Positions 22,117-34,559 of a stretch of 64,000 nt of DNA are shown in pieces. Source of the DNA: an uncultured Pelagibacteraceae bacterium (lineage in GTDB: Bacteria > Pseudomonadota > Alphaproteobacteria > Pelagibacterales > Pelagibacteraceae); the NCBI GenBank assembly GCA_902582605.1, contig CACHSP010000003.1, positions 6,876 through 70,875 of the forward strand, in the 5' to 3' direction. Numbering within the stretch: position 1 is the stretch's first letter; every line of letters begins with the position of its first letter. Made by a program: the position numbers and the translations under genes. The notes beneath the pieces were generated by a model. The model saw only the letters and a program-made list of their open reading frames with translations. It was not told the DNA's origin and searched no databases.

Positions 22117-23133
22117 ATGTACACAGCAAATCATAAGATTAATTATCAATTATCTCTCTGGTTAATTTCAATGTTTTGGATTGTGTCCATTATGATTGTT
22201 GTTGGTGGTTTAACAAGATTAACGGACTCTGGTCTTTCAATTACTAAATGGCAACTTTTCTCAGGATTTTTACCACCTTTAAATCAAGAAGACTGGATTT
22301 CATATTTTAATCTTTATAAGCAAATACCGGAATTCAAATTACAAAATTACAATATGAATATGCAAGAATTCAAAATTATTTTTTGGTGGGAATGGGCACA
22401 TCGTTTTTTAGGAAGATTAATTGGTATCGGATTTTTAATACCATTAATTTATTTTTCTTTTAAAATTAGTATTTCAAAATTGTATAGTTTGTATTTTATT
22501 TTTTTTCTAATATGTTTTCAAGGCTTTATTGGTTGGTATATGGTCAGTAGTGGTCTTGTAGATAGAGTTGATGTAAGTCATTTTAGATTATCTATTCATT
22601 TATTGATTGCTTTTATTATTTTATCATTAATATTCTGGAATTATCTCAAGCTAAATTTGAGTTATAATACAACAAACAAAATAAATCCTTTAATACCACT
22701 CGTTTTTTTAACATTGGTTTTTACACAAATTGTTATAGGAGCTTTTGTATCTGGTATGGATGCTGGAAAAATTTATAATTCCTGGCCAAATATGGGTACA
22801 GCATATTTTCCTGACGACAATGAATTTGTTAATTTATTTAAACTATCTGCTTTTAGCGATCCATCTTTGGTTCAATTTATTCATAGAAATTTAGCTTATA
22901 TAATCGGATTTTATTATTTATTTATGTTTTACAAAATTTATAAGGACAAAATTTTTGATTTATACAAGTCTATAAATGTATTGGGTTTCTTTATTTTATT
23001 ACAAATTCTTTTAGGAATAATAACAGTCTTATATGGTGCACAAATCTATATAGCATCTATGCACCAAATAAGTTCAATCTTTTTGGTAAGTTCTTGTATC
23101 TATTTTTTATTTCTTAATACAAGATTTAACTAA
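22117..23133 (+). CDS. ctaA: Heme A synthase (COX15/CtaA)
   Basis: VGGLTRLTDSGLSITKW, WEWAHR, QGFIGWYMV, QFIHR. Confidence 0.95.
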   Translation: MYTANHKINYQLSLWLISMFWIVSIMIVVGGLTRLTDSGLSITKWQLFSGFLPPLNQEDWISYFNLYKQIPEFKLQNYNMNMQEFKIIFWWEWAHRFLGRLIGIGFLIPLIYFSFKISISKLYSLYFIFFLICFQGFIGWYMVSSGLVDRVDVSHFRLSIHLLIAFIILSLIFWNYLKLNLSYNTTNKINPLIPLVFLTLVFTQIVIGAFVSGMDAGKIYNSWPNMGTAYFPDDNEFVNLFKLSAFSDPSLVQFIHRNLAYIIGFYYLFMFYKIYKDKIFDLYKSINVLGFFILLQILLGIITVLYGAQIYIASMHQISSIFLVSSCIYFLFLNTRFN

Positions 23134-24454
23134 CTGCCCTTAATTTACCTTTAGAAGATTTGTTTAAAGCTTGGTTTAAATCCTCAATGATATCATCTAC
23201 ATGCTCAATACCAATACAAAGTCTTACATAGCTCTGTGTAACTCCAGATGCTGCAAGTTCTTTTTCATTTAATTGGCTATGAGTTGTGCTAGCAGGATGT
23301 ATTGCTAAACTTCTTACATCACCAATATTTGCAACATGATAAAACATTTTTAAAGACTCGATAAATGTTTTTCCAGCCTCAATACCACCTTTTAATTCAA
23401 TACCAACCATTGGCCCATAACCACCCTTTAGGTATTTTTTTGCTCTATCAGCGATTGGTTTATTATGTTCAGTAGAATAGATTACTTTTGTAACCTCTTT
23501 GTGTTTTTTTAAAAAATTAACAACTTTCTCAGCATTCTCACAATGTTGTTTCATACGTAAGGCTACAGTCTCTAAACCCTGAATTATAGCAAAAGCATTA
23601 TCAGGTGCTAATGCTGAACCAAGATCTCTTAGTAAACATACTCTGGCTCTCACTGCAAAAGGAACATTTGCTCCTGTAAGCTCTGGCACTGCTTTACCCC
23701 ATATTACACCACCATAACTAGCATCAGGTTCATTAAATAAAGGTTGTCTTTTTGGATCAGCAGTCCAATCAAAATTACCACTATCAACAATGCTCCCTGC
23801 TACTGCAGTACCATGTCCACCAATATATTTAGTAAGTGAATGAATTACTATGGCCGCACCATGTTCGATAGGTTTGCAAATAACAGGTGATGCAGTGTTG
23901 TCCATGATTAATGGAATATTATATTTTCTGCCAATATCAGAAACTTCTTTAATAGGAAAAACTCTAAGATAAGGATTCGGTAAAGTTTCTCCATAAAAAG
24001 CTCTTGTTTTATCATCTACCATTTTTTCAAAATTTTTTGGATCACTTGGGTCCGCATATCTAATTTCTATTCCTAATTTACTTAATGTATGAGTAAATAA
24101 AGATACAGTTCCACCATATAGATCTGTTGAACTTACAATGTTGTCACCCGCTTGTGCTACATTTAATATTGCAAAAGATGAAGCTGTTTGACCCGAAGAC
24201 ACTGTTACACAAGATAATCCTCCCTCTAAAGCAGCAACTCTTTTTTCTAAAACATCATTGGTTGGATTCATAATTCTCGTGTAGATGTTTCCAAATTCTT
24301 TTAATGCAAAAAGATTGGCAGCATGTTCAGTATTATTAAATTGATACGATGTTGTTCTATAGATAGGTACAGCTACAGCATTTGTGGCTGGATCACTTTT
24401 ATAGTCACCACCATGAATGGCTATAGTTTCTGGATTATTTCTTTTTGTACTCAT
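23126..24454 (-). CDS. metY: O-acetylhomoserine aminocarboxypropyltransferase
   Basis: GNIYTRIMNPT, HSLTKYIGGHG (PLP Lys), ANIGDVRSLAIHPASTTHSQL. Confidence 0.95.
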   Translation of the reverse strand: MSTKRNNPETIAIHGGDYKSDPATNAVAVPIYRTTSYQFNNTEHAANLFALKEFGNIYTRIMNPTNDVLEKRVAALEGGLSCVTVSSGQTASSFAILNVAQAGDNIVSSTDLYGGTVSLFTHTLSKLGIEIRYADPSDPKNFEKMVDDKTRAFYGETLPNPYLRVFPIKEVSDIGRKYNIPLIMDNTASPVICKPIEHGAAIVIHSLTKYIGGHGTAVAGSIVDSGNFDWTADPKRQPLFNEPDASYGGVIWGKAVPELTGANVPFAVRARVCLLRDLGSALAPDNAFAIIQGLETVALRMKQHCENAEKVVNFLKKHKEVTKVIYSTEHNKPIADRAKKYLKGGYGPMVGIELKGGIEAGKTFIESLKMFYHVANIGDVRSLAIHPASTTHSQLNEKELAASGVTQSYVRLCIGIEHVDDIIEDLNQALNKSSKGKLRAVS

Positions 24455-24459
24455 TTTTA

Positions 24460-24517
24460 CTCCTTTTTTAGTGCTTTTGCTTTATGCAAGGCGCACAATA
24501 CAGTTCAAATGCCTACC
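24460..24517 (-). ncRNA. SAM-V riboswitch
   Basis: Minus strand GGUAGGCAUUUGAACUGUAUUGUGCGCCUUGCAUAAAGCAAAAGCACUAAAAAAGGAG; H-type pseudoknot ending at the metY SD. Confidence 0.92.
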
Positions 24518-24533
24518 GATTTTATGAGAATTT

Positions 24534-29892: not shown

Positions 29893-30352
29893 TAGGTAAT
29901 ATTTATTTACTATTATCTAAAGTATTACATTAAGTATTTAATATAAACTATTGTATTTATTGTATTTTATAAAAATTATAAATAATATAGATTTAGAATA
30001 TTTTGAATTATTTAATGTTAAAATCGCATTAATATGCTCTATAAGAGTAGTGATTAATTACAAATTATGAAAAACATCAAATAACCTTTTAAAATAGGGA
30101 CTTTTTCAGATTGTGGTTATAAAAATTCCAAAAAAATAGGGCAGTTCAAAAGCATTGATATAGTTGAATAGTAGAGCGATGCACTAATTGAATATAGCAT
30201 TTAAACGCCCATAGAGGGGTCTATTTTTAGTATAGGCTGATACATGGTACAACTAAAGGGTGAATTATGTTATTTAAAAAGTAATCTCACAAAAAGGTAA
30301 AAAAGCGTTGATTTTACTCACTTTTTTAACTTAAAAAAGGTTTAAAATAGCT

Positions 30353-30628
30353 CTAAATAGCTACTTTTTCAGATCTTAGTAATTTGAGCTTTTGTTTGAT
30401 TCCACCTCTACCAGAGTAGCCTCCAGGAGCTCCATCAGATCTAATTACTCTATGACAAGGTATTTTTGGGGCATATGGGTTTTTAGCACAAGCGTTAGCG
30501 ACTGCTCTGGCTGATTTAGGGCTGTTTATGGCAGCAGCAACTTGTTTATATGTTCTTATTTTACCTTTTGGTATAGTTTTGAGGTATTTCCAGACTTTTA
30601 ATTGAAATTTAGTGCCTTTAAGATGCAT
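30353..30628 (-). CDS. ogt: Minimal O6-methylguanine-DNA methyltransferase (MGMT domain)
   Basis: FQLKVW, ARAVANA, active-site PCHRV, GYSG; start at MHLKGT with AGGA just upstream (ORF-track extension to 30691 rejected). Confidence 0.9.
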   Translation of the reverse strand: MHLKGTKFQLKVWKYLKTIPKGKIRTYKQVAAAINSPKSARAVANACAKNPYAPKIPCHRVIRSDGAPGGYSGRGGIKQKLKLLRSEKVAI

Positions 30629-30643
30629 TTTTCCTGAGAAAAC

Positions 30644-30820
30644 TCTGTTTCCTTGCACTTTTAAGGGTGCAAAGAACAGATGTTTTGGCACGTCGTTGAT
30701 GCGCTACCGCCATGCCTCCCGTTCTGCATGTTCAGCGATGCTTTGCAGAACTTTCTGCCCCTTGGATTTGTACCTCTCGGCTTTTGCCCAATTGGCCAGT
30801 TAAGGGTTGCCCCTTAATTC
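30644..30820 (-). ncRNA. GC-rich structured RNA of unassigned class upstream of ogt
   Basis: About half GC in an AT-rich genome; at least five stems; GCAA and GAGA tetraloops on the minus strand; terminal hairpin followed by GUUUU. Confidence 0.75.
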
Positions 30821-30912
30821 ATTTAAATACTAACAGATATGATTTAAAAGCTGTATCACCTTTTAATTGATTTTTAAAATTTACAGCAATTCATGTGAAT
30901 ATTGGGGATAAA

Positions 30913-31125
30913 TCAAGCTTTGAAAACTAAGATAAAATAGCTGATTAAAAATAAGATTGCCAAGATAGATAAAAAAATAGTTTCAATGCTTTTGCCATGA
31001 TTTTTATATTGAATTGAACTTAAAATAATAAATCCCACAGAGGTAATTAAAAACCATACAGCAGGAATTTCTCCATCAATTGAACCCATAATTTTTATAT
31101 TTAAACTATTGACATCAAAAATCAC
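30913..31125 (-). CDS. Small hypothetical membrane protein (2 TM); start may be the ATG at 31089
   Basis: Two hydrophobic segments; divergent from the recombinase gene. Confidence 0.55.
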   Translation of the reverse strand: MIFDVNSLNIKIMGSIDGEIPAVWFLITSVGFIILSSIQYKNHGKSIETIFLSILAILFLISYFILVFKA

Positions 31126-31132
31126 TTGATAT

Positions 31133-31167
31133 ATTACTAATGATAATTAATTGTTATCAATAGTAAT
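31133..31167. repeat. 14-7-14 bp inverted repeat, candidate tyrosine-recombinase core site
   Basis: ATTACTAATGATAA-TTAATTG-TTATCAATAGTAAT; arms 13/14 complementary; ends 3 nt before the recombinase ATG. Confidence 0.8.
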
Positions 31168-31170
31168 TGT

Positions 31171-32124
31171 ATGAATGAACTGACAACAGACCTAAAATCG
31201 CTTCATGAGGCAACTTTAAACAACCTCAAAAGCTCAAAAGCAAATAATACTTTAAGAGCATACAAATCAGATTTTAAAGATTTTGGAGCTTTTTGTGCTA
31301 AGCGTGGTTTGAATTCTTTACCATCAGAGCCAAAAATAGTTTCATTATACCTTACACACCTCTCTAAAAATTCAAAAATTAGCACTTTAAGAAGACGTTT
31401 GGTGTCAATTAGCATGGTTCATAAACTAAAAGGGCATTATCTAGACACTAAACATCCAATCATTGTTGAAAACTTAATGGGAATAAAAAGGGTGAAAGGA
31501 AGCATTCAAAAAGGTAAAAAACCTATATTAATCAGTCATTTAAAATCTATAATTAATGTAATAGATCAACAAAAAATTGAGGATATTAAGAAGTTAAGAG
31601 ACAAGTCAATAATCTTAACTGGCTTTGGAGGTGGATTTAGACGAACTGAGCTTATTTCAATTGATTATGAAGATTTAGAATTTGTACCTGAGGGTCTTAA
31701 AATCACCATTAAAAGATCAAAAACCGATCAATTTGGTGAAGGAATGATTAAAGGACTACCCTACTTTACTAATGAAAATTATTGCCCTGTAGTTAATCTT
31801 AAGAAGTGGCTAGAAATTTCTAAAATTAAATCTGGACCTATTTTTAGAAGATTTTCTAAAGGTTTATCTTTGACAGAAAAAAGATTAACCGACCAATCAG
31901 TAGTTTTATTAATTAAAGAATATCTTAATTTAGCTGGTATTGAGAATAAAAATTTTGCAGGTCATAGTTTAAGATCAGGTTTCGCAACAGTAGCTGCTGA
32001 ATCTGGTGCTGACGAACGTAGTATTATGGCAATGACTGGACATAAAACAACGCAAATGGTCAGAAGATATATTAGAGAAGCAAATATATTTAAAAATAAT
32101 GCATTAAACAAGATTAAGATTTAA
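31171..32124 (+). CDS. Tyrosine recombinase, Cre/TnpS-like
   Basis: N-terminal NTLRAYKSD...STLRRRL; catalytic set FRRTEL, RSKTDQ, GHSLRSG, TGH, RRY. Confidence 0.93.
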   Translation: MNELTTDLKSLHEATLNNLKSSKANNTLRAYKSDFKDFGAFCAKRGLNSLPSEPKIVSLYLTHLSKNSKISTLRRRLVSISMVHKLKGHYLDTKHPIIVENLMGIKRVKGSIQKGKKPILISHLKSIINVIDQQKIEDIKKLRDKSIILTGFGGGFRRTELISIDYEDLEFVPEGLKITIKRSKTDQFGEGMIKGLPYFTNENYCPVVNLKKWLEISKIKSGPIFRRFSKGLSLTEKRLTDQSVVLLIKEYLNLAGIENKNFAGHSLRSGFATVAAESGADERSIMAMTGHKTTQMVRRYIREANIFKNNALNKIKI

Positions 32125-32129
32125 ACTTG

Positions 32130-34229
32130 CTATATCAAAGAAGCTTTTTTTCCGACAGATTTATCAATTATATATTTTGAAATTTTTACTTCATTAAACA
32201 ATTTAAAATATCTTTCCTGACCTTTTTTAGCGATTCTAATTCTTGATTTATCATTTTTTTTATAAAATTTGATTTTTTCAGCAAGATCATCGATGTGATC
32301 ATAAGAAACTATTTCATTTGAATTGAAAAAATTGTTCATTTTTACTTTTTTATCAATAAAAACTAATAATCCGTTTCCCATAAGTGAAGCGATTCTGTTA
32401 CTTGAGTAATGTTTGGTAGGTTCGCCCCTACTGAGATTTAAGGCCATTTTTGAATTAAGTAACGATTTATAAAATTCATTTCCCCAAACAGGTTCTTGTT
32501 TTCCGATTCCATAAAAATCATATTTTATTCCATCCATTTTTTTTATAAGTTTTTCTAAAAAAATGACTCTGTTATCTGTTTTTCCTTCCTTCAACGTTGC
32601 TCTATTAACACCATGACTCATTGCATAAAAAACATCATTTTCTGGTTTTAATTTATAGACATCGAAACATTCAATATTTTTGTCAACAGGTGTCATAAAA
32701 AAGTGGATATTTTGGGTGAATTTTTTTGATGATTTTAAAACAGAAGGATTAGTTGTAATAAATGAATGATCTACCATTGGAAAAAATTTTTTTAATTTAT
32801 TCACGTTTTCCGAGGTATCTGATAAATTTTTCATTAATGGATCTTCATTCCACTGGGAGATAATTATTTTTTTATTAATTGACCTAAAATCAGATAGGAT
32901 TTCATGATTTATGTTATCTGAGTGACCAAAAATAATTAAATCTGGATTATAATTTTTAAAAGTTTCGATTAAATAGTTATGAAATTTATTTTTAAAACTT
33001 AGTAGATTGATACCTTTATTTTGTCTCACATAATCTCTATCACTAATTTCAATTACATCATGACCATTTCGTATAAAACCATTGGTAAATTTTTTACCTA
33101 ACGAAAGATTGTAAATTCTATGATTAAGTTTTTGCGCTAAATTATAAATATTTATAATCCTTAATTTATTGCCATTAATATTAATTTTATTAAAAGGGAA
33201 CAACGAGTTTCTCATCAAATCAATTTTTTGAGAATTTATCTTTAATTTGTGTTTTACAAAATTTTTACTTTTAATTTGAATACGCTTTCTCAATTTATCA
33301 TTTCTAATAAGTTTTATGATTTCATTTTCAATATTTTTTGTATCCAACTTTTTAAGTTTAATTGCATAATCAGTTGTTTCAGGAAGACCCCCGGTATTAG
33401 AAATTATTGTGGCACAGCCACGTGAGGAAGCCTCTAAAGCGGTTCTACCAAATGGCTCTTCCCATCTTGAAGGAATAACAGCAATTTCAGATTTGCTTAA
33501 ATAATCTAAAACTTTATTATGCGGAATTTGACCAAGATCAAACTGTCTTTTATGAGTAGGAAAATTTTGAAATCTTCTTTCCTCACCAATTGAAATAGCA
33601 CGCCATTCATTGTATTGATCTAAGATTTTGAACATTGATTTGCAATACAGATCATATCCTTTAGATTCATTTAATTTTCCTACAAAAATTATTTGTTTAT
33701 TTTTTTTGGTATTTTTTCTTATTGGATCAATACTATGATAAATAATTTGAGTTTTGTTATCTGATAAATTTGGTAAATTTTCAAAAAACTTTTTTTTTAC
33801 CCATTTTGAGATAAAAATAATTTTATCAACATTTTTTAATAGATGGACTCTCTCACTAACTGATTTAGCACCTTTCATCGTAGTTGGGTCATTATGAAAA
33901 TATAAAATAATTTTTGAATTTAATTTTTCAACAAATTCTTTAACCATAATTGGTCTATTATGTAATTCTAAAACATCAAAATTTAAATTTTTGATTTTAT
34001 TAATAATTTTATTTGAATACTCTTTTGTTGTACTATTAAGTTTCGAATTGATATTATCAATATTTATATAATTTTTTGTTAAATAATTTTTATTTTTTGT
34101 ACTACCTATAATGTAAGTATTTTTCTTATATTTAGAATCCCTTACAAAATCACTGATCCATAGAGCAACTGCTCCAGCTCCTTTTAGTGTATAGTTTTCT
34201 TTATATGGTAATATTGATGCAATTTTCAT
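32130..34229 (-). CDS. Two-module glycosyltransferase (GT4 plus CgeB/YkvP-like GT-B domain)
   Basis: FVGKLNESKG, PSRWEEPFGRTALEA; C-terminal SKMALNLSRG, YSSNR. Confidence 0.85.
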   Translation of the reverse strand: MKIASILPYKENYTLKGAGAVALWISDFVRDSKYKKNTYIIGSTKNKNYLTKNYINIDNINSKLNSTTKEYSNKIINKIKNLNFDVLELHNRPIMVKEFVEKLNSKIILYFHNDPTTMKGAKSVSERVHLLKNVDKIIFISKWVKKKFFENLPNLSDNKTQIIYHSIDPIRKNTKKNKQIIFVGKLNESKGYDLYCKSMFKILDQYNEWRAISIGEERRFQNFPTHKRQFDLGQIPHNKVLDYLSKSEIAVIPSRWEEPFGRTALEASSRGCATIISNTGGLPETTDYAIKLKKLDTKNIENEIIKLIRNDKLRKRIQIKSKNFVKHKLKINSQKIDLMRNSLFPFNKININGNKLRIINIYNLAQKLNHRIYNLSLGKKFTNGFIRNGHDVIEISDRDYVRQNKGINLLSFKNKFHNYLIETFKNYNPDLIIFGHSDNINHEILSDFRSINKKIIISQWNEDPLMKNLSDTSENVNKLKKFFPMVDHSFITTNPSVLKSSKKFTQNIHFFMTPVDKNIECFDVYKLKPENDVFYAMSHGVNRATLKEGKTDNRVIFLEKLIKKMDGIKYDFYGIGKQEPVWGNEFYKSLLNSKMALNLSRGEPTKHYSSNRIASLMGNGLLVFIDKKVKMNNFFNSNEIVSYDHIDDLAEKIKFYKKNDKSRIRIAKKGQERYFKLFNEVKISKYIIDKSVGKKASLI

Positions 34230-34230
34230 A

Positions 34231-34479
34231 TTAACCTATACTTAGTAAGTGTTTCCTTTTTTTTTTGTCTTTTTTTAATTTATATTCAAATGACATGGCT
34301 AATCTTTTATCATAAAATCTTTTTTTAAAGATAATTTTCCATTTAAAACCTCGTGTCGACTTTGCTCCTTTGCCAGTATTATGTTTTTTAAGTCTTAAAT
34401 TGAGGTTATTTGTATATCCAACATAAGTTTTGATAATTTTATTATTTACGCTTTTAAGCATATAAACATAAAACATCAT
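34231..34479 (-). CDS. Small GIY-YIG nuclease (YhbQ/Slx1-like)
   Basis: YVYML, TYVGYT, RLKKHNTGKGAKSTR, E..LK. Confidence 0.9.
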   Translation of the reverse strand: MMFYVYMLKSVNNKIIKTYVGYTNNLNLRLKKHNTGKGAKSTRGFKWKIIFKKRFYDKRLAMSFEYKLKKDKKKRKHLLSIG

Positions 34480-34484
34480 AAATG

Positions 34485-34559
34485 TGGCGGTCCCTAGGGG
34501 AATCGAACCCCTCTTTCGAGGATGAAAACCACGTGTCCTAACCGATAGACGAAGGGACC
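34485..34559 (-). tRNA. tRNA-Glu(TTC)
   Basis: Reverse complement GGTCCCT...CGTGG-TTTTCAT-CCTCG...GGTTCGATTCC...CCA. Confidence 0.96.

What the first reader, a model, noticed from the sequence alone, without database searches (positions are those of the whole stretch)
31109..32124. Candidate single-recombinase chromosome dimer resolution system: Cre-like enzyme plus loxP-like site at the apparent terminus
Seen: an intact tyrosine recombinase (R-K-HxxR-H-Y) of Cre/TnpS-like form (RSKTDQ) rather than XerC/XerD form. Its ATG lies 3 nt from the near-perfect repeat ATTACTAATGATAA-N7-TTATCAATAGTAAT. There are no phage, plasmid or transposase genes and no second copy of the site was noticed. The locus sits where gene orientation converges. 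Known: symmetric arms around a 6-8 bp asymmetric spacer are the architecture of loxP and dif. Streptococcal XerS/difSL is a one-gene system with its site directly upstream of the gene at ter. Inference: this streamlined lineage may have domesticated a plasmid-type resolvase with its own site in place of XerCD/dif.
Basis: partly seen in the sequence, partly recalled or inferred. Interest (0 to 1): 0.85.

Follow-up and report, generated by a model that had tools for sequence, protein, structure and literature searches.

The report
SAR11 Cre-like chromosome dimer resolver
SAR11 ocean bacteria, once reported to lack the usual XerC/XerD-dif system for separating fused sister chromosomes, carry a single Cre-like recombinase gene next to its own palindromic target site exactly where replication ends, and this pair very probably does that job.

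Summary
Window 31171-32124(+) encodes an intact 317-aa tyrosine recombinase. The 14-7-14 palindrome at 31133-31167 ends 3 nt before its ATG and overlaps a promoter-like element.

- The gene is the only tyrosine recombinase in this assembly. It is present once in 192 of 211 near-complete genomes of the family, including every one I counted with fewer than 10 contigs.
- The 19-bp site core occurs once per genome, always beside the gene.
- Cumulative GC and AT skew switch within 0-2.1 kb of the gene in five genomes from four genera.
- Canonical XerC/XerD are not found in this family but are present in the sister family. RecA and an FtsK with a gamma domain are kept.
- By profile and by fold the enzyme is Cre-like, not Xer-like. 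It sits inside a patchy family whose members lie in mobile elements and often carry the same arms upstream.
- Pelagiphage contigs with no recombinase on them carry copies of the site.

This is a new variant of the known single-recombinase dimer-resolution systems (XerS, XerH, XerL). Earlier agents of this scan reached the same reading on other SAR11 genomes. I found no paper describing it in the library searched.

The parts
31109..31114 (+). -35-like hexamer TTGACA of the recombinase promoter
   Evidence: Read. TTGACA or TTGACT sits at the same place in all SAR11 loci and in the MarineAlpha5 and Sporomusa relatives. The consensus scan tool did not list it, because the spacer to TATATT is 15 nt.
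31127..31135 (+). Extended -10-like element TGaTATATT, overlapping the first 3 nt of the left arm
   Evidence: Read. TATATT or TATTAT is conserved in the orthologous loci. Promoter function is inferred, not shown.
31133..31146 (+). Left arm of the site, ATTACTAATGATAA (presumed recombinase binding element)
   Evidence: The outer arm changes symmetrically with the right arm between SAR11 clades (ACTAAYGATAA versus TTCCGATAA).
31147..31153 (+). Asymmetric 7-bp spacer TTAATTG (presumed crossover region)
   Evidence: It is TTAATTG or TTAATGG in 27 of 28 loci across proteins 52-100% identical, always in the same orientation relative to the gene. The exact 19-mer occurs once per genome in 181 of 211 family genomes, 0 of 13 in the sister family, and 0 for the reversed control.
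31154..31167 (+). Right arm of the site, TTATCAATAGTAAT
31171..32124 (+). Cre-family tyrosine recombinase, 317 aa, catalytic R158-K184-H265-R268-H291-Y300
   Evidence: It is the only PF00589 match in the assembly.
32080..32080 (.). Maximum of cumulative GC skew on this contig (C3:38955), the apparent replication terminus
   Evidence: The same holds in G013 (maximum at 615,774; gene 616,646-617,599) and in G044, G055 and G061.
32124..32130 (.). Point where gene orientation converges

Best explanation
This is a one-enzyme, one-site chromosome dimer resolution system of the Cre/lox type. It stands in for XerCD/dif in the SAR11 family.

Inferred mechanism. RecA-mediated crossovers between sister chromosomes make dimers that carry two copies of the terminus site. 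Two recombinase monomers bind the two arms of each site, and the two sites synapse as a tetramer. The conserved tyrosine cuts at the edges of the 7-bp spacer. Two sequential pairs of strand exchanges, through a Holliday junction, return two monomers. FtsK is retained with its gamma domain. It probably brings the two sites together at the septum and so biases the outcome towards resolution, as it does for loxP placed at dif in E. coli.

The site lies between the promoter's -10 element and the start codon. Bound recombinase therefore probably also represses its own gene.

Shown here: gene, site, their linkage, single copy, conservation, terminus position, absence of XerC/XerD, and Cre-like sequence and fold. 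Inferred: binding, catalysis, FtsK dependence and autoregulation.
For: 1. Core and single-copy.
- The gene was found in 192 of 211 family genomes at least 90% complete.
- All 19 genomes without it have 20 or more contigs.
- By my count, all ~67 genomes with fewer than 10 contigs have it.
- The SAR11 sequences form one clade with support 0.995.

2. Site.
- It lies upstream of the gene in 28 of the 29 orthologous loci scanned; the remaining locus lacks the upstream flank.
- The 19-mer core occurs exactly once per genome in 181 of 211, and 0 times for the reversed control.
- The arms co-vary symmetrically between clades.

3. Terminus.
- In the closed genome G013 the cumulative GC skew peaks at 615,774, AT skew peaks at 620,847, and the gene is at 616,646-617,599. 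The skew minimum at 1,290,841 gives two near-equal replichores.
- On the window's own contig the skew maximum falls inside the gene.
- Local GC-skew maxima lie 0, 2.1 and 1.4 kb from the gene in G044, G055 and G061, which belong to three other genera.

4. Replacement of XerCD.
- G013, G061, G054 and G047 have this one PF00589 match only.
- G004 (20 contigs) also has only this one.
- G008, G055 and G044 have one extra match of 77, 66 and 20 bits. None scores like XerC or XerD, which reach 137-154 bits in the sister family.
- The sister family has XerD-like and XerC-like proteins at 330 and 314 bits.
- The window protein scores 74 bits on the XerD model, whose cut-off is 330.

5. Need and helper. 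RecA is present in all 5 genomes tested. FtsK with a gamma domain is present in G000 and G013.

6. Enzyme type.
- The family profile hits Cre at E 1.7e-36 over its full length.
- hhalign gives 99.7% probability.
- The AlphaFold model has pLDDT 96, and its top 31 Foldseek hits are Cre or Tre at TM about 0.8.
- The catalytic hexad is invariant.

7. The arms belong to the family. Relatives 39-44% identical, in a MarineAlpha5 MAG and in a Sporomusa prophage-like region, have TTCCGATAA-N7-TTATCRGAA between promoter and gene, each with a different spacer. So do 4 of 17 other alphaproteobacterial homologues.

8. The site is kept away from the gene.
- 28 IMG/VR contigs carry the exact 19-mer with no recombinase on the contig. 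Most also match the arm bases outside the search key.
- One such contig resembles cultured HTVC010P-type pelagiphages.
- The complete genomes of phages Greip and HTVC024P have no PF00589 match, yet carry site-like palindromes next to the terminase gene.

9. Precedent. Cre/loxP placed at dif resolves E. coli chromosome dimers and needs FtsK C-terminal activity to do so (PMC2965235, read).
Against: - No binding or recombination data exist.
- No strongly polar KOPS-like 7- or 8-mer was found in G013; the best strand skew was about 0.7. FtsK guidance is therefore unsupported.
- No SAR11 genome showed a second site or an element integrated at the site, so recombination at the site has not been caught in nature.
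- The site's position over the promoter would also fit a pure operator.
- A Cre-type enzyme without external control could make dimers as well as resolve them.
- Three genomes show interrupted copies (G096, G102, G051). These may be sequencing errors, but they could also mean the gene is dispensable.
Confidence: 0.78

Rival explanations
1. The palindrome is only an operator through which the protein represses its own gene. The recombinase's real substrates lie elsewhere, for example on phage or other foreign DNA that carries copies of the site. It would act either as a host function that phages exploit or as a defence that scrambles them. Dimer resolution would be done by something else or not at all.
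For: The site lies between the -10 element and the ATG. Many recombinase-less phage contigs carry sites with the same arms. Relatives sit in a BREX island and in a prophage-like region.
Against: This does not explain why the locus sits at the skew switch in five genomes of four genera. It does not explain why XerC/XerD are missing exactly where this gene is universal. It does not explain why the asymmetric spacer is conserved across proteins as little as 52% identical. An operator role and a recombination role are also not exclusive.
Confidence: 0.12
2. It is the leftover integrase of a genomic island or prophage that became fixed next to tRNA-Glu (window 34485-34559).
For: A tRNA gene lies 2.4 kb downstream. 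The flanks of the locus vary between strains. The protein family is otherwise linked to mobile elements.
Against: The gene is present in nearly all genomes of the family as one vertically inherited clade. No phage or transfer genes lie nearby. The site is a full two-armed palindrome and is single-copy, not an att pair. The catalytic residues are invariant.
Confidence: 0.04
3. It is a DNA invertase that flips a segment to switch expression, as in fim-type or shufflon systems.
For: None beyond it being a tyrosine recombinase with a weak match to invertase models (24 bits against a cut-off of 222).
Against: Only one site per genome exists, so there is no inverted partner.
Confidence: 0.02

Closest known systems
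Cre/loxP of phage P1, including loxP engineered in place of dif in E. coli
   Same: Closest enzyme by profile (129 bits, E 1.7e-36), by hhalign (99.7%) and by fold (TM about 0.8). One recombinase acts on a two-armed inverted repeat around an asymmetric spacer. In P1 the site also lies upstream of the gene (lox at position 1, cre at 436-1467). The engineered dif::loxP plus Cre strain resolves chromosome dimers with help from FtsK (PMC2965235).
   Different: Identity to Cre is only about 20%, and Cre branches outside the family. The site is 14-7-14, or 9-7-9 in other clades, not 13-8-13. His291 stands where Cre has Trp315. This is a natural chromosomal, core, terminus-located system rather than a plasmid-prophage function. 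The site overlaps the gene's own promoter.
XerS/difSL of streptococci and lactococci
   Same: A single recombinase with its site immediately upstream of the gene, at the terminus, replacing XerCD/dif (PMC2731167 and PMC2965235).
   Different: It is a different branch of tyrosine recombinases: the window protein scores 43 bits on the XerS model, whose cut-off is 267. The difSL sequence printed in PMC2965235 shares no arms with this site.
XerH/difH of Helicobacter and Campylobacter, and XerL/dif of Legionellales
   Same: These are single-recombinase dimer-resolution systems in lineages once scored as lacking XerCD. XerL was found in a group that the same 2009 survey listed as having no dif/Xer (PMC9765430).
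   Different: The match to XerH is weak in sequence and fold (34 bits with the profile, TM 0.63). XerL could not be compared because no sequence was at hand. In those systems the site is not always next to the gene.
XerC/XerD-dif of most bacteria
   Same: Same proposed job, same position at the skew switch, and FtsK retained.
   Different: That system has two paralogous enzymes and a 28-bp site with a 6-bp centre. Here the XerD and XerC models score 74 and 60 bits against cut-offs of 330 and 335.

Membership tests
XerC/XerD (NCBIfam TIGR02224, TIGR02225) | Score above the curated equivalog cut-off | tested here: not met
   74.2 and 60.4 bits against cut-offs of 329.6 and 335.15. Proteins of the sister family score 316-330 and 314 bits.
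XerS (NCBIfam NF003462) | Score above the curated cut-off | tested here: not met
   43.2 bits against 267.
Cre-type tyrosine recombinases | Full-length homology to Cre in both domains | tested here: met
   Family profile against Cre chains: E 1.7e-36, positions 31-312 aligned to 34-329. hhalign: 99.7%, 274 columns. The protein alone gives only E about 1e-3.
Cre-type tyrosine recombinases | Cre-like fold | tested here: met
   AlphaFold model with pLDDT 96.1. Foldseek ranks 1-31 are all Cre or Tre, TM 0.72-0.83. XerH and IntI reach 0.63-0.64.
Cre-type tyrosine recombinases | Catalytic R-K-H-R-(W/H)-Y residues | tested here: met
   R158, K184, H265, R268, H291 and Y300 are invariant in 27 orthologues. 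His stands at the position of Cre Trp315.
Cre-type tyrosine recombinases | lox-type site: 13-bp inverted arms around an 8-bp asymmetric spacer, recombined by the enzyme alone | tested here: inconclusive
   The architecture is similar (14-7-14) but the spacer is 7 bp. Recombination is not testable here.
Chromosome dimer resolution site (dif criteria of PMC2731167) | Non-coding, palindromic, low G+C, about 30 bp | tested here: met
   35 bp, intergenic, 7 G or C out of 35, arms pair at 13 of 14 positions.
Chromosome dimer resolution site (dif criteria of PMC2731167) | Close to the terminus as defined by cumulative GC skew | tested here: met
   Within 0-2.1 kb of the skew maximum in G000, G013, G044, G055 and G061.
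Chromosome dimer resolution site (dif criteria of PMC2731167) | One copy per chromosome, conserved with its recombinase across the lineage | tested here: met
Chromosome dimer resolution system | Recombinase binds and recombines two directly repeated sites; loss causes a segregation defect; FtsK dependence | not testable with these tools
   Only the presence of FtsK with a gamma domain and of RecA could be shown.

The most novel reading that the evidence does not exclude
The terminus site is more than a housekeeping dif. It may be a port that integrase-less pelagiphages use in trans, including HTVC010P-type phages described as strictly lytic. Their genomes carry one or two tandem sites with the host's arms and with spacers identical or nearly identical to the host's. 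They could therefore integrate at the SAR11 terminus, or be resolved or cyclised, by the host's Cre-like enzyme, much as IMEX elements exploit XerCD.
Probability: 0.3. Interest if true: 0.85.

Novelty: new variant of a known kind. Interest (0 to 1): 0.75.

Why it matters
SAR11 is the most abundant bacterial group in the ocean and a model of genome streamlining. The 2009 survey of proteobacteria listed Pelagibacter ubique as having no dif/Xer system and took that as loss of a non-vital function (PMC2731167).

The data here say instead that the function was kept but handed to a recruited Cre-family enzyme with one site. That is a fourth independent bacterial replacement of XerCD, after XerS, XerH and XerL, and the first from the Cre branch.

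It gives three things. First, an exact marker for the SAR11 terminus in fragmentary assemblies. Second, an explanation for a core gene annotated as 'integrase' or 'XerC/XerD'. Third, a natural Cre/lox-type pair with a 7-bp spacer that could be useful as an orthogonal tool.

If phages use the site, it would also change how lysogeny in SAR11 is counted.

Tried and rejected
- Single-sequence AlphaFold gave an unusable model (pLDDT 34). It was replaced by an alignment-based model.
- The consensus promoter scan did not report the promoter, because the -35 to TATATT spacer is 15 nt. The promoter is therefore my reading, backed by conservation only.
- An RNA hairpin in the 5' leader is weak: -4.7 to -5.5 kcal/mol, z -0.2 against shuffles. 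It also cannot explain the copies in phages. I set it aside.
- A search for KOPS-like polar 7- and 8-mers in G013 found nothing convincing.
- I looked for elements integrated at the site. No genome has two sites except G051, where broken copies lie at contig ends and look like an assembly duplicate.
- Among cultured pelagiphage regions examined, Greip has a clear site, HTVC024P and HTVC204P have partial ones, and the Skadi-2 and HTVC034P fragments have none. The phage link is therefore patchy.
- Two other alphaproteobacterial genomes have a family member and no canonical XerD. In G403 there is no skew switch at the gene. In G405 the local maximum is 8-9 kb away, near a contig end. Extension beyond SAR11 is not shown.
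- Laying metatranscriptome contigs showed short pieces over the gene in four RNA libraries of three studies. Contigs cannot show a transcript start, and DNA carry-over is possible.
- A tree including XerS, XerH, XerL and TnpS was not built, because no tool gave me those sequences.
- No complex prediction was run.

Full report
WHAT IS THERE

The window is part of contig C3 of a 78%-complete, 33-contig assembly. It carries a SAM-V riboswitch and an IMES-2 RNA. The closest protein relatives are labelled Candidatus Pelagibacter. So this is SAR11.

At 31171-32124(+) lies a 317-aa ORF that matches Pfam Phage_integrase and the N-terminal SAM-like domain. Immediately upstream, in order:
- TTGACA at 31109-31114
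- 15 nt of spacer
- TGaTATATT at 31127-31135
- the palindrome: ATTACTAATGATAA (31133-31146), TTAATTG (31147-31153), TTATCAATAGTAAT (31154-31167)
- TGT, then the ATG

A palindrome of this quality is the only one in the window. A related 1.34-Mb genome has 25 of them against 3-11 in shuffles, so the case rests on conservation and position, not on the repeat alone.

CONSERVATION

With this protein as query, 192 of 211 genomes of the same family that are at least 90% complete have one strong match.
- The 19 genomes without a match all have 20 or more contigs.
- By my count of that table, all ~67 genomes with fewer than 10 contigs have the gene.
- The 13 genomes of the sister family give only weak matches (E 1e-9 to 1e-4).
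- In 28 of the 29 orthologous loci scanned, from nine genera and with proteins 52-100% identical, the site lies between a TTGAC-type hexamer and the start codon. The remaining locus lacks the upstream flank.

Two arm types occur: ACTAAYGATAA...TTATCRATAGT and TTCCGATAA...TTATCGGAA. The outer arms have changed on both sides together, as expected for a site bound by two copies of one protein. The asymmetric spacer is TTAATTG or TTAATGG in 27 of 28 loci and always points the same way relative to the gene.

The exact 19-mer YGATAATTAATKGTTATCR occurs once per genome in 181 of 211 family genomes. It occurs in none of the 13 sister-family genomes, and the reversed control never occurs. The catalytic residues R158, K184, H265, R268, H291 and Y300 are invariant in 27 orthologues.

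TERMINUS

I fetched the closed same-genus genome G013, 1,343,202 bp.
- Its cumulative GC skew peaks at 615,774 and its AT skew at 620,847.
- The gene is at 616,646-617,599 and the site core at 617,609-617,627.
- The skew minimum at 1,290,841 gives two replichores of about 0.67 Mb each.

On the window's own contig the GC-skew maximum is at C3:38,955, window 32,080, inside the 3' end of the gene.

In 120-kb stretches around the gene in three closed genomes of three other genera, the local maxima lie close by:
- G044: GC skew peaks inside the gene and AT skew 3 bp after its end.
- G055: 2.1 kb upstream of the gene.
- G061: GC skew 1.4 kb downstream and AT skew 57 bp after the gene's end.

Gene orientation in the window converges at 32124/32130.

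WHAT IT REPLACES

The gene is the only PF00589 match in the assembly and in G013, G004, G061, G054 and G047. G008, G055 and G044 have one further match of 77, 66 and 20 bits, well below the 137-154 bits of the sister family's XerC and XerD.

The sister family has two strong matches per genome. NCBIfam reads these as XerD-like (330 bits on NF001399, 316 on XerD) and XerC-like (314 bits). The window protein reaches 74 and 60 bits on those models, against cut-offs near 330.

RecA is present in all five genomes tested. An FtsK of about 700 aa with a gamma domain is present in G000 and G013. So dimers can form and the usual helper is there.

WHAT KIND OF ENZYME

A whole-library search found about 2,700 cluster representatives with E below 1e-30, most about 40% identical to the query.

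An alignment of 101 of them was searched against solved structures:

| Target | Score (bits) | Note |
|---|---|---|
| Cre | 129 | E 1.7e-36, both domains |
| XerD | 77 | |
| archaeal XerA-type | 72 | |
| XerH | 34 | |

hhalign against P1 Cre gives 99.7% probability over 274 columns at 20% identity. The alignment-based AlphaFold model has pLDDT 96, and its first 31 Foldseek hits are all Cre or its engineered derivative Tre at TM about 0.8.

In a FastTree of 133 sequences rooted on the sister family's XerC/XerD:
- The SAR11 sequences form one clade (support 0.995) nested in the larger family.
- Their nearest neighbours include a MarineAlpha5 MAG.
- Cre branches outside the family.

ORIGIN

Outside SAR11 the family is patchy. 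Eighteen of about 248 sampled alphaproteobacterial genomes have a member, some of them with in-frame stops. Relatives sit next to a BREX defence island and in a prophage-like region of Sporomusa.

Several relatives carry the same arms between promoter and gene, but with other spacers:
- MarineAlpha5: ATTACTTCCGATAA-CATACAA-TTATCGGAAGTAAT
- Sporomusa: CTAACTTCCGATAA-TAGAACA-TTATCAGAAGTTAG
- 4 of 17 other alphaproteobacterial homologues

Among the viral contigs fetched with the TTCCGATAA-N7-TTATCGGAA arm pattern, 17, mostly of high G+C, encode both the site and a family recombinase.

The gene-plus-site module is therefore an old property of a mobile family. SAR11 appears to have fixed one copy at its terminus.

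PHAGES

This lead came from earlier notes of this scan. I tested it here.
- The exact 19-mer occurs in 28 IMG/VR contigs, none of which encodes the recombinase. Most also match arm bases that were not part of the search key, and many have two sites in tandem.
- One such contig resembles the cultured HTVC010P-type pelagiphages HTVC024P, Skadi and Greip.
- Greip carries ATTACTAATGATAA-TAAAAG-TTATCACTAGTAA in the non-coding stretch beside its terminase gene. Neither Greip nor HTVC024P has any PF00589 match.
- When only the arms are specified, low-G+C viral contigs show spacers such as TTAAACG, TTAAATG, TTAATCG and TTAATTG, close to the host's TTAATKG.
- The paper that described these phages calls the integrase-less subgroup strictly lytic and does not mention such sites (PMC8477408).

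This shows the site is kept away from the recombinase promoter. That argues it is a DNA element read in trans and not just an operator or an mRNA hairpin. I found no integrated form, so what the phages do with it is open.

MECHANISM AND COMPARISON

The best model is Cre/lox-type resolution at ter with FtsK bringing the sites together.

The direct precedent is the E. coli strain in which loxP replaces dif. There, recombination itself does not need FtsK, but dimer resolution does (PMC2965235).

The layout (one enzyme, with the site just upstream of the gene, at ter) is that of XerS/difSL, but the enzyme is from another branch.

The 2009 survey listed Pelagibacter ubique as lacking dif/Xer (PMC2731167). 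Legionellales, listed the same way, were later shown to use XerL (PMC9765430). A 2026 preprint on Arctic Pelagibacterales speaks of 'XerC and XerD' from automatic annotation. I found no paper in the held library that describes the SAR11 system.

WEAK POINTS
- There is no biochemistry.
- No KOPS-like polar motif was found.
- The promoter is my reading: the scan tool did not list it, and a 15-nt spacer is short.
- Three genomes have interrupted copies that may be sequencing errors.

VERDICT

My confidence in the dimer-resolution reading is 0.78. It is a new variant of a known kind. The same reading was reached before by this scan on other SAR11 genomes.

Noticed in passing
window 30685-30824 (-) and 30353-30691 (-): An IMES-2 RNA (Rfam RF02035, 145 bits) lies directly upstream of, and overlaps by a few bases, a 112-aa ORF with the O6-methylguanine-DNA methyltransferase DNA-binding domain (PF01035, 111 bits). 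In two marine RNA libraries the contig depth over IMES-2 is about 8e4 to 1e5, against tens to hundreds over the neighbouring genes. IMES-2 lies next to the recombinase locus in 6 of the 18 SAR11 loci scanned. The RNA thus has a SAR11 host and a possible cis link to a DNA-repair gene.
   Followed up: partly
window 30822-31132: Contigs of two RNA libraries join about 30822 directly to 31129-31132, skipping some 305-309 bp that hold the small 59-70 aa ORF at 30913-31125 (-). The conserved block therefore seems to begin exactly at the left arm of the site. The upstream flank also differs between close relatives. The short flanks (29-30 nt) make this weak evidence.
   Followed up: no
IMG/VR loci L149, L156, L158, L162, L171 (positions): Pelagiphage-like contigs carry two sites in tandem. 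Typically one has ACTAACGATAA-type arms and its own spacer, and one has TTCCGATAA-type arms and the host spacer TTAATTG. This looks as if one phage caters for both host arm types, or needs two sites.
   Followed up: partly
L326 / G405:C3 about 165,900-167,000: A 1.6-Mb, 28% G+C alphaproteobacterium of another family has a family member with TTTACGATAA-CTGTAA-TTATCGTAA between TTGACT and its ATG, and no canonical XerD. The local skew maximum is 8-9 kb away, near a contig end, so a second lineage with the same solution is possible but not shown.
   Followed up: partly
G096:C1:571219-572134, G102:C1:595396-596348, G051:C1 and C3: The recombinase reading frame is split or carries stops in three otherwise near-complete genomes. 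These may be homopolymer errors of long-read assemblies or real decay.
   Followed up: no
window 24457-24523 (-): A SAM-V riboswitch lies directly upstream of the 442-aa ORF at 23126-24454 (-).
   Followed up: no
window 29893-30352: A 460-bp AT-rich stretch without an ORF of 60 aa or more lies between the last + strand gene (EamA-type transporter) and the methyltransferase-like ORF, close to the skew switch.
   Followed up: no
window 34231-34479 (-): A stand-alone 82-aa GIY-YIG nuclease-domain ORF lies next to tRNA-Glu at 34485-34559 (-).
   Followed up: no
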